This document shows, piece after piece, positions 14,121-14,148 of a stretch of DNA of 32,000 bases (positions are counted from its first letter, which is position 1; every line of letters starts with the position of its first letter). This stretch comes from Buchnera aphidicola str. APS (Acyrthosiphon pisum). GTDB lineage: Bacteria > Pseudomonadota > Gammaproteobacteria > Enterobacterales > Enterobacteriaceae. The translations under genes and the position numbers were made by a program. The notes beneath the pieces are model-generated. The model did not search any database. It was given only the letters and a program-made list of their open reading frames with translations, and was not told the origin of the DNA. The stretch covers positions 600,001 through 632,000 of the forward strand of contig NC_002528.1 in assembly GCF_000009605.1 (NCBI RefSeq), read 5' to 3'.

Positions 14121-14148
14121 TTGAAAAAAAAAAATAAGACCTTACCTT
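14121..14148 (+). promoter_or_regulatory. Sigma32-type heat-shock promoter of ibpA with a poly(A) spacer
   Basis: TTGAAA (14121-14126) runs into an 11-A homopolymer (14124-14134), followed by TAAGA and the C-rich CCTTACCTT (14140-14148), about 90 nt upstream of the ibpA ATG. This fits the layout CTTGAAA - 13/14 nt - CCCCATnT. Confidence 0.6.

What the first reader, a model, noticed from the sequence alone, without database searches (positions are those of the whole stretch)
14121..14148. The ibpA heat-shock promoter has an 11-A homopolymer in its spacer, a known thermal-tolerance switch site
- **What the sequence shows.** Upstream of ibpA the sequence reads TTGAAAAAAAAAAATAAGACCTTACCTTAAAAT.
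  - There is a sigma32-like -35 element (TTGAAA, 14121-14126).
  - Its A's continue into an uninterrupted run of 11 A (14124-14134).
  - A C-rich -10-like element follows (CCTTACCTT, 14140-14148).
  - This gives a 13-nt spacer as I count it.
- **Published context.** In Buchnera of the pea aphid, a recurrent single-A deletion in exactly this kind of ibpA promoter tract was reported. It abolishes heat induction of ibpA and alters aphid thermal tolerance and fecundity (Dunbar, Moran and colleagues).
- **Limit of my recollection.** I recall the functional and mutant alleles as 12 A versus 11 A, but I am not certain of those numbers or how the authors counted. If that is right, this sequence carries the short, heat-sensitive allele.
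Basis: partly seen in the sequence, partly recalled or inferred. Interest (0 to 1): 0.65.

Follow-up and report, generated by a model that had tools for sequence, protein, structure and literature searches.

The report
Known Buchnera ibpA heat-shock promoter, functional allele

Summary
The sequence is exactly as described: TTGAAA (14121-14126), 11 uninterrupted A's (14124-14134), a 13-nt spacer and CCTTACCTT (14140-14148), 88 nt upstream of ibpA. The window comes from Buchnera aphidicola of Acyrthosiphon pisum: its IbpA is identical to that of strains LSR1, LL01, TLW03 and JF98, and it is about 99.7% identical in DNA over 6.4 kb.

The element is the published sigma-32 (RpoH) ibpA promoter. Dunbar et al. 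2007 define the functional "long" allele as 11 A with a 13-nt spacer and the mutant "short" allele as 10 A with a 12-nt spacer. Papers from 2021 and 2024 agree.

Independent support:
- The TTGAAA-13 nt-CCYYAYNT geometry is kept in 12 of 14 other Buchnera lineages; two have 14 and none has 12.
- E. coli ibpA has the same 13-nt spacing.
- Public A. pisum Buchnera assemblies carry 11 A (9 records including the window), 10 A (6 records) or 9 A (TLW03).

An 11-A run and the bare motif are not statistically unusual in this 25% GC window. Position, conservation and published experiments make the element real. Verdict: already known, low interest.

The parts
14121..14126 (+). -35 element TTGAAA of the sigma-32 (RpoH) ibpA promoter
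   Evidence: Read directly. It is invariant in all 14 other Buchnera lineages examined and identical to the E. coli K-12 ibpA -35 element. Mean pairwise identity is 0.96.
14124..14134 (+). Uninterrupted run of 11 A. It overlaps the last 3 bases of the -35 element and the first 8 bases of the spacer, and is the slippage-prone site of the published 1-bp deletion.
   Evidence: Counted by script. It equals the published long/intact allele. The tract is 10 A in JF98, JF99 and four SRR100989xx assemblies, and 9 A in TLW03.
14127..14139 (+). 13-nt promoter spacer AAAAAAAATAAGA
   Evidence: The length of 13 equals the published functional spacer. 12 of 14 other Buchnera lineages have 13, two have 14 and none has 12. 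E. coli ibpA also has 13. Sequence identity across species is 0.88.
14140..14147 (+). -10 element CCTTACCT (consensus CCCCATNT).
   Evidence: Read directly. Orthologous elements are CCTTATAT, CCCTACTA and, in Tetraneura, CCCCATAT. Identity across species is 0.74.
14115..14115 (+). Published G/T polymorphic site, 9 nt upstream of the A tract. The window has T.
   Evidence: Dunbar 2007 describes it. G is found in LSR1, ERZ2433796, SRR32247712 and JGI 3300005264, and T in the others.
14114..14120 (+). Conserved upstream flank ATTACTA adjoining the -35 element
   Evidence: Identity is 0.73 across 9 species against 0.45 for the sequence further upstream. Its function was not tested.
14039..14089 (+). 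hslU intrinsic-terminator-like hairpin plus T run (T7 at 14076-14082), which separates hslVU from the ibpA transcription unit
   Evidence: RNA fold gives -16.8 kcal/mol, z = -3.9, with 0 of 200 shuffles folding as well. The hairpin core ATCCATT...AATGGAT is conserved in most species.
14225..14229 (+). Shine-Dalgarno sequence GAGGA of ibpA
   Evidence: Read directly. An AGGAG-type motif is conserved at the same place in all 9 species.
14236..14709 (+). ibpA coding sequence (157 aa small heat-shock protein)
   Evidence: ORF found. It matches Pfam HSP20 and NCBIfam IbpB/IbpA at E 4.5e-25 and 1.2e-22, below the equivalog cutoffs. It is 100% identical to IbpA of A. pisum Buchnera strains.
14727..14758 (+). 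Strong hairpin between ibpA and fpr that lacks a T run on the + strand side
   Evidence: RNA fold gives -17.7 kcal/mol, z = -6.5. The scan scores it as a terminator only on the - strand. This fits the published read-through from ibpA into fpr and antisense yjeA.
14786..15544 (+). [quoted passage not shown]
   Evidence: NCBIfam NF008178, E 3.3e-109. Wilson 2006 reports RT-PCR spanning ibpA, fpr and the yjeA complement.
15562..16536 (-). epmA/yjeA, whose antisense strand is reached by heat-induced read-through. It is intact in this window.
   Evidence: NCBIfam NF006828 at 483 bits against a cutoff of 264, full length. The gene order ibpA-fpr-yjeA(-) is as published for A. pisum Buchnera.

Best explanation
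This is the sigma-32 (RpoH)-dependent heat-shock promoter of ibpA in Buchnera aphidicola of the pea aphid, in its intact 'long' allelic state of 11 A and a 13-nt spacer.

How it works: RpoH-RNA polymerase contacts TTGAAA (-35) and CCTTACCT (-10), and the spacer length sets their relative distance and helical phase. At 13 nt the promoter is heat-inducible. It drives ibpA and, by read-through, fpr and antisense yjeA.

Most of the spacer is an A homopolymer, and replication slippage recurrently deletes one A. That gives a 12-nt spacer, which abolishes heat induction and lowers basal expression. Aphids carrying it are heat-sensitive but reproduce better in constant cool conditions.

Basis for each step:
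- Shown here: the sequence, the allele state, the source lineage, conservation of the geometry, and natural 10-A and 9-A variants in other assemblies.
- Taken from the literature: heat induction, the expression effect of the deletion, and the fitness effects.
- Inferred: a transcription start a few bases downstream of 14147, and that this particular source line is heat-responsive.
For: Sequence and context:
- The sequence and coordinates are as described.
- The source is A. pisum Buchnera. Its IbpA is identical to that in ACFK01000001 (LSR1), CP002300 (LL01), CP002301 (TLW03) and CP002303 (JF98), with 18-21 substitutions per 6.4 kb.
- Ten published A. pisum Buchnera primers all match perfectly.
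- The gene order matches Wilson 2006.

Allele definition:
- Long allele = 11 A and 13-nt spacer; short allele = 10 A and 12-nt spacer (Dunbar 2007).
- Intact promoter = 11 A (PMC11665910).
- Wild type = 13 bp, mutant = 12 bp (PMC8466206).
- The G/T site at 14115 fixes the counting register.

Conservation:
- The geometry TTGAAA-13-CCYYAYNT is found in 12 of 14 other Buchnera lineages.
- E. coli ibpA reads TTGAAA-13-ACCCATTT.
- The promoter is a conservation island, 0.83 against 0.45-0.49 for the flanks.
- Degnan 2011 lists it among the conserved RpoH sites.

Alternatives not found:
- No competing sigma-70-like site lies on the + strand of the spacer.
- There is no RNA-thermometer match and no conserved 5'UTR structure.
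Against: - The -10 element matches only 4 of the 7 specified consensus positions (CCTTACCT against CCCCATNT).
- The bare motif and an 11-A run are each expected by chance about once or more in a window of this composition.
- No transcription-start data were available.
- Homopolymer lengths in assemblies can be miscalled, so the count of 11 is only as good as the underlying sequencing.
- The LSR1 assembly shows 11 A although a 2021 paper treats lab LSR1 Buchnera as non-responsive. An assembly allele therefore need not equal the state of a living line.
- The exact strain of the window could not be named.
Confidence: 0.93

Rival explanations
1. The window carries the short, heat-insensitive ibpA promoter allele.
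For: The field's '13 versus 12' spacer labels make an off-by-one memory understandable.
Against: - Three papers give 11 A and a 13-nt spacer as intact, and 10 A and 12 nt as mutant.
- The G/T marker confirms the counting register.
- The 13-nt spacing is the conserved state in other Buchnera and in E. coli ibpA.
- Assemblies with one A fewer exist and correspond to the 12-nt allele.
Confidence: 0.02
2. The count of 11 is a sequencing or assembly artefact, or a consensus of a mixed population. The biological sample actually carries a different tract length or is heteroplasmic.
For: - Homopolymers are error-prone.
- Public assemblies disagree, with 9, 10 and 11 A.
- The LSR1 assembly has 11 A while lab LSR1 is described as non-responsive.
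- Dunbar 2007 observed both alleles co-occurring in one colony.
Against: - Nine independent records including the window show 11 A, from NCBI, ENA, JGI and Logan.
- Other homopolymers in the region are consistent within haplotype groups.
- 11 A is the expected majority allele in field surveys. PMC8466206 found 129 of 129 aphids with the 13-bp spacer.
Confidence: 0.04
3. The TTGAAA...CCTTA match is a chance resemblance in AT-rich DNA, and ibpA is really driven from another promoter in the spacer.
For: The motif is expected 0.66 times per window by chance, and the -10 match is imperfect.
Against: - It is the only match in 32 kb and lies just upstream of the one classical heat-shock gene here.
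- It is strongly conserved where the flanks are saturated.
- No sigma-70-like site lies on the + strand of the spacer.
- A natural 1-bp deletion in it abolishes heat induction, with no other genomic change.
Confidence: 0.01

Closest known systems
Buchnera aphidicola (A. pisum) ibpA sigma-32 promoter, 'long' allele (Dunbar, Wilson, Ferguson and Moran 2007, PLoS Biol 5:e96)
   Same: Same organism group, locus, -35 and -10 elements, 11-A tract and 13-nt spacer. The flanking primers ibpAgenf and ibpAgenr match perfectly. The T variant at the described G/T site is one of the two published states.
   Different: Nothing in the promoter differs. The window's wider haplotype (T at 14115, T7 at 14076-14082 and 12 private SNPs over 6.4 kb) differs from all 15 other records retrieved. 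The strain is unnamed. It may be the Japanese APS reference, which the tools could not confirm.
Buchnera (A. pisum) ibpA 'short' allele (10 A, 12-nt spacer)
   Same: Same locus and same flanking sequence. It is present in the JF98, JF99 and four SRR100989xx assemblies.
   Different: The window has one more A. According to the literature, the short allele lacks heat induction.
E. coli K-12 ibpAB sigma-32 promoter
   Same: TTGAAA -35 element, 13-nt spacing and a CC-containing -10 element (ACCCATTT), upstream of the orthologous small heat-shock gene.
   Different: The E. coli spacer (AGTTCATTTCCAG) is not a homopolymer. From my own knowledge, E. coli ibpA also has a ROSE-like RNA thermometer in its 5'UTR. 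None is detectable here.
Phase-variable promoters whose spacer is a homopolymer or short repeat, such as the contingency loci of Neisseria, Haemophilus and Bordetella (from established knowledge, not tested here)
   Same: Slipped-strand mispairing changes the -35/-10 spacing and switches promoter strength. Dunbar 2007 speculates about evolvability.
   Different: - This is a sigma-32 promoter, not a sigma-70 promoter.
- The organism is an obligate, vertically inherited endosymbiont, so selection acts largely through the host.
- Only long-to-short (and possibly to 9 A) changes are documented in what I read. Reversion is not shown.
- The tract is interrupted in several related species.

Membership tests
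Sigma-32 (RpoH) heat-shock promoter | -35 element matching (C)TTGAAA | tested here: met
   TTGAAA at 14121-14126. It is invariant across 14 other Buchnera lineages and in E. coli ibpA.
Sigma-32 (RpoH) heat-shock promoter | -10 element matching CCCCATNT | tested here: inconclusive
   CCTTACCT matches 4 of the 7 specified positions (CC, A and the final T). Orthologues range up to a perfect CCCCATAT in Tetraneura. The match is partial but at an orthologous position.
Sigma-32 (RpoH) heat-shock promoter | Spacer within the functional range. Dunbar 2007, citing E. coli work, gives 13-15 nt by this counting. | tested here: met
   The spacer is 13 nt. E. coli ibpA is also 13. The range is quoted.
Sigma-32 (RpoH) heat-shock promoter | Located upstream of a heat-shock regulon gene, as an independent transcription unit | tested here: met
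   The -10 element ends 88 nt upstream of the ibpA ATG, downstream of the hslU terminator hairpin.
Sigma-32 (RpoH) heat-shock promoter | rpoH present in the genome, with heat-induced RpoH-dependent transcription | not testable with these tools
   rpoH was not looked for in the 32-kb window. The literature reports a conserved RpoH in Buchnera and 25-42-fold heat induction of ibpA in long-allele lines.
Published 'long' (functional) ibpA promoter allele of A. pisum Buchnera | 11 consecutive A and a 13-nt spacer, in A. pisum Buchnera | tested here: met
   11 A and a 13-nt spacer. The source is A. pisum Buchnera.
Published 'short' (heat-insensitive) ibpA promoter allele | 10 consecutive A and a 12-nt spacer | tested here: not met
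   The window has 11 A and 13 nt. The 10-A state is seen in JF98, JF99 and other assemblies, but not here.
Simple-sequence contingency (phase-variable) promoter | Repeat-length polymorphism within a population that changes promoter spacing | tested here: met
   11-A, 10-A and 9-A variants occur among 16 A. pisum Buchnera records.
Simple-sequence contingency (phase-variable) promoter | Reversible switching in both directions, and a tract maintained by selection for mutability | tested here: inconclusive
   Reversion is not documented in the papers read. The tract is uninterrupted in 7 of the 14 other lineages (11-13 A) and interrupted or short in the other 7: A. kondoi, A. lactucae, D. noxia, Aphis glycines, Pemphigus, Eriosoma and CP113415.
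ROSE-like RNA thermometer in the ibpA 5'UTR (considered as an additional layer) | Match to an Rfam ROSE model, or a conserved SD-sequestering hairpin | tested here: not met
   There is no relevant Rfam hit at E<=10. The single-sequence fold has z = -1.3. The 9-species consensus structure has 0 pairs.

The most novel reading that the evidence does not exclude
The hypermutable uninterrupted A tract may be a lineage-specific feature rather than a universal Buchnera one. A. pisum keeps A11, while both sampled congeners (A. kondoi A7GA3, A. lactucae A6TA4) and D. noxia and Aphis glycines have 'locked' the same 13-nt geometry with single-base interruptions.

The spacer sequence is nevertheless conserved far above background (0.88). 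This hints that an A-rich or A-tract spacer has a sequence-specific role beyond length, for example intrinsic DNA bending or rigidity, or temperature-dependent geometry at the sigma-32 promoter. If so, susceptibility to this thermal-tolerance switch could be predicted species by species from the promoter sequence.
Probability: 0.15. Interest if true: 0.45.

Novelty: already known. Interest (0 to 1): 0.12.

Why it matters
The locus is a textbook example of a single-base change in an obligate symbiont that governs an animal host's thermal tolerance. For this window the practical point is simply the correct genotype call: it is the intact, heat-responsive allele. Anyone using the sequence as a reference should count 11 A as long and 10 A as short. 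Nothing new about the mechanism follows from this window. The only mildly new material is comparative. The 13-nt geometry is conserved across much more of Buchnera than the six species originally sampled, and the homopolymer is interrupted in several lineages.

Tried and rejected
- **Naming the strain.** The single genome-contig scan with an IbpA alignment returned only distant Buchnera (Pemphigus, Tetraneura, Eriosoma) and other symbionts, with no close relatives. The exact-HslU look-up did not discriminate because HslU is identical across strains. Primers designed from BA000003 match perfectly, but none overlaps a window-private SNP. The idea that the window is strain APS therefore remains a guess.
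- **RNA thermometer.** I looked for a ROSE-type RNA thermometer or any conserved 5'UTR structure and found none.
- **Other sigma-32-like sites.** I looked for these in the window, for example upstream of hslV. The ibpA site is the only match, and reading 11940-12154 showed no convincing candidate.
- **Sigma-70-type promoter.** None was found on the + strand of the hslU-ibpA spacer.
- **Burke et al. 2010.** This paper (Genetics, PMC2940300) might describe the JF98, JF99 and TLW03 alleles, but it is not held in the library.
- **Apparent conflict with Dunbar 2007.** That paper places 'psi-yjeA immediately downstream of ibpA'. Wilson 2006 gives the order ibpA-fpr-yjeA(-), which is the order in the window, so the conflict is resolved.
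- **JGI metagenome pattern scan.** It yielded one more record, with 11 A.

Full report
**Observation.** The window reads ATTGAAAAAAAAAAATAAGACCTTACCTTAAAAT from 14120.
- A script count gives TTG followed by exactly 11 A (14124-14134), then TAAGA, then CCTTACCTT.
- With TTGAAA as the -35 element (14121-14126) and CCTTACCT as the -10 element (14140-14147), the spacer is 13 nt.
- The ibpA ORF (157 aa) starts at 14236. hslU ends at 14029. fpr (14786-15544, +) and epmA/yjeA (15562-16536, -) follow.

**Is it more than chance?** On composition alone it is not.
- The window is about 25% GC.
- The pattern TTGAAA-N12-15-CCYYA is expected 0.66 times per window, and 51 of 100 shuffles contain at least one match.
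- A/T homopolymers of 11 or more occur three times against about 3.1 expected under a first-order Markov model.

The evidence that the element is real comes from position, conservation and published experiments.
- It is the only match in 32 kb.
- It lies downstream of a strong hslU terminator-like hairpin (14039-14089; -16.8 kcal/mol, z = -3.9), and its -10 element ends 88 nt upstream of the ibpA ATG.

**Source.**
- The exact IbpA protein is encoded in Buchnera aphidicola assemblies from Acyrthosiphon pisum: ACFK01000001 (LSR1), CP002300 (LL01), CP002301 (TLW03) and CP002303 (JF98). JF99 (CP002302) differs by one residue. The strain names come from PMC6027505.
- Over 6.4 kb the window differs from each of these by 18-21 substitutions, about 0.3%. 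At 12 sites every other record shares the alternative base.
- The window's spacer haplotype (T at 14115, T7 at 14076-14082, A11) is not seen in the other 15 records.
- Ten published A. pisum Buchnera primers match perfectly.
- The gene order ibpA-fpr-yjeA(-) is the one Wilson et al. 2006 describe for A. pisum Buchnera.
- The window is therefore pea-aphid Buchnera of a lineage distinct from the retrieved strains. It could be the Japanese APS reference, but I could not confirm this. The genome collection returned no close Buchnera, and HslU did not discriminate between strains.

**What the published alleles are.**
- Dunbar et al. [quoted passage not shown] They also state that the long allele is identical to the sequenced Japanese genome.
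[quoted passage not shown] Among the retrieved strains the only G/T difference in the spacer is at window 14115, exactly nine bases before 14124.
- A 2024 PNAS paper (PMC11665910) repeatedly describes the intact promoter as having '11 successive adenines'.
- A 2021 field study (PMC8466206) calls the 13-bp spacer wild type and the 12-bp spacer the thermally sensitive mutant.
- The window therefore carries the long, functional allele.

**Independent sequence evidence for the same conclusion.** I retrieved the ibpA upstream region from 14 other Buchnera lineages. These were A. kondoi, CP113415, A. lactucae, Sitobion avenae, two unnamed Macrosiphini-type genomes, Brevicoryne brassicae, Diuraphis noxia, CP029205, Aphis glycines, Pemphigus obesinymphae, two Tetraneura species and Eriosoma harunire.
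- All have TTGAAA and a CCYYAYNT-type -10 element. Aphis glycines has TCATATAT and Tetraneura has a perfect CCCCATAT.
- The spacer is 13 nt in 12 lineages and 14 nt in two (Brevicoryne, with 12 A, and Eriosoma). It is never 12.
- The E. coli K-12 ibpA promoter reads TTGAAA-AGTTCATTTCCAG-ACCCATTT, which is also 13 nt by this counting.
- In a 9-species alignment of the hslU-ibpA spacer, mean pairwise identities are as follows:

| Region | Mean pairwise identity |
|---|---|
| -35 element | 0.96 |
| Spacer | 0.88 |
| -10 element | 0.74 |
| Sequence upstream of the promoter | 0.45 |
| 5'UTR | 0.49 |

- Degnan et al. 2011 independently list the ibpA RpoH site among the conserved sigma-32 sites of Buchnera.

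**The polymorphism is visible in public data.** I compared 16 distinct A. pisum Buchnera records.
- 11 A: nine records. These are the window, LSR1, LL01, ERZ2433796, SRR32247712, SRR4240360, SRR34926237 and two JGI contigs.
- 10 A: six records. These are JF98, JF99 and four SRR100989xx assemblies.
- 9 A: one record, TLW03.

Spacers shorter than 13 nt occur only within A. pisum in my sample.

**Mechanism.**
- Shown by others: long-allele lines induce ibpA 25-42-fold at 35 C and short-allele lines do not. In the 5A sublines the single-A deletion was the only genomic difference. The mutation arose and fixed twice in the laboratory, and it trades heat tolerance against fecundity in the cool. Transcription reads through fpr into antisense yjeA.
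- Consistent with that read-through, the strong hairpin between ibpA and fpr (14727-14758; z = -6.5) has a T run only on the minus-strand side.
- Inferred: RpoH holoenzyme needs the 13-15-nt spacing, and removing one base both shortens and rotates the -35 element relative to the -10 element. The start site is predicted at about 14150-14156.
- I found no second regulatory layer. There is no Rfam thermometer match, no significant fold of the 5'UTR, no conserved structure across species, and no sigma-70-like site on the + strand of the spacer.

**Caveats.**
- Homopolymer counts in assemblies can be wrong.
- An assembly is also a snapshot of one moment. The LSR1 assembly shows 11 A, whereas Perreau et al. 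2021 treat their LSR1 Buchnera as lacking the responsive promoter.
- The -10 element is a weak match to consensus.
- No transcription-start data were available, and Burke et al. 2010 could not be read.

**Comparison and novelty.**
- This is the published element in its published wild-type state, so it is already known.
- The only modest additions are comparative. The 13-nt geometry holds across a much wider range of Buchnera than originally sampled.
- The uninterrupted homopolymer is not universal. It is interrupted in A. kondoi and D. noxia (A7GA3), A. lactucae (A6TA4) and Aphis glycines (A5GA8), and it is short in Pemphigus (A6) and Eriosoma (A8).
- This bears on the 'conserved for evolvability' speculation in Dunbar 2007, but it does not arise from this window.

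Noticed in passing
window 11679-11936 (+), A12 run at 11738-11749: An 85-aa ORF lies between rpmE and hslV and looks like an N-terminal remnant of FtsN. It matches TIGR02223 at E 1e-5 and 25 bits, far below the cutoff, and ends in LPPKPKEKWKYIEKLENS. It contains A7, A8 and A12 runs whose lengths differ among A. pisum Buchnera strains, so gene callers report it as 85, 103, 52 or 43+52 aa in different assemblies.
   Followed up: partly
L005/L053 (CP002301, strain TLW03), ibpA promoter at locus 2888: The TLW03 assembly has only 9 A (an 11-nt spacer), two fewer than the long allele. This is either a second-step slippage allele or a homopolymer assembly error. The papers I could read do not describe it.
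   Followed up: partly
L004 (ACFK01000001, strain LSR1), ibpA promoter: The LSR1 assembly has the 11-A long allele. Perreau et al. 2021 nevertheless describe their LSR1 Buchnera as lacking the responsive ibpA promoter. This suggests either that the mutation arose after sequencing or that the assembly miscalls the tract.
   Followed up: no
L034/L035 (A. kondoi and CP113415), L061 (A. lactucae), L044 (D. noxia), L043 (Aphis glycines): The A tract is interrupted by a single base in several species (A7GA3, A6TA4, A5GA8) while the 13-nt spacing is kept. The same A7GA3 state occurs in A. kondoi and in the more distant D. noxia. That implies either a parallel change or a reversion in A. pisum.
   Followed up: partly
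window 15562-16536 (-), T10 run at 16524-16533: epmA/yjeA is full length and scores well above the family cutoff in this window (483 bits against 264), although Dunbar 2007 calls it a pseudogene. On its own strand it begins ATG followed by a 10-A run. In TLW03 the ORF is cut to 245 aa, with an extra T reported next to that run; in one JGI contig it is cut to 253 aa.
   Followed up: partly
window 14727-14758: A very stable hairpin lies between ibpA and fpr (-17.7 kcal/mol, z = -6.5). It has a T run only on the minus-strand side. It would therefore terminate transcripts arriving from the yjeA side rather than ibpA transcripts, which fits the published ibpA-fpr read-through.
   Followed up: partly
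window 14076-14082: A T7 run within the hslU terminator tail is T6 in all retrieved T-haplotype strains where the run could be scored and T7 in the G-haplotype strains. The window combines T at 14115 with T7, a haplotype not seen in the other 15 records.
   Followed up: no
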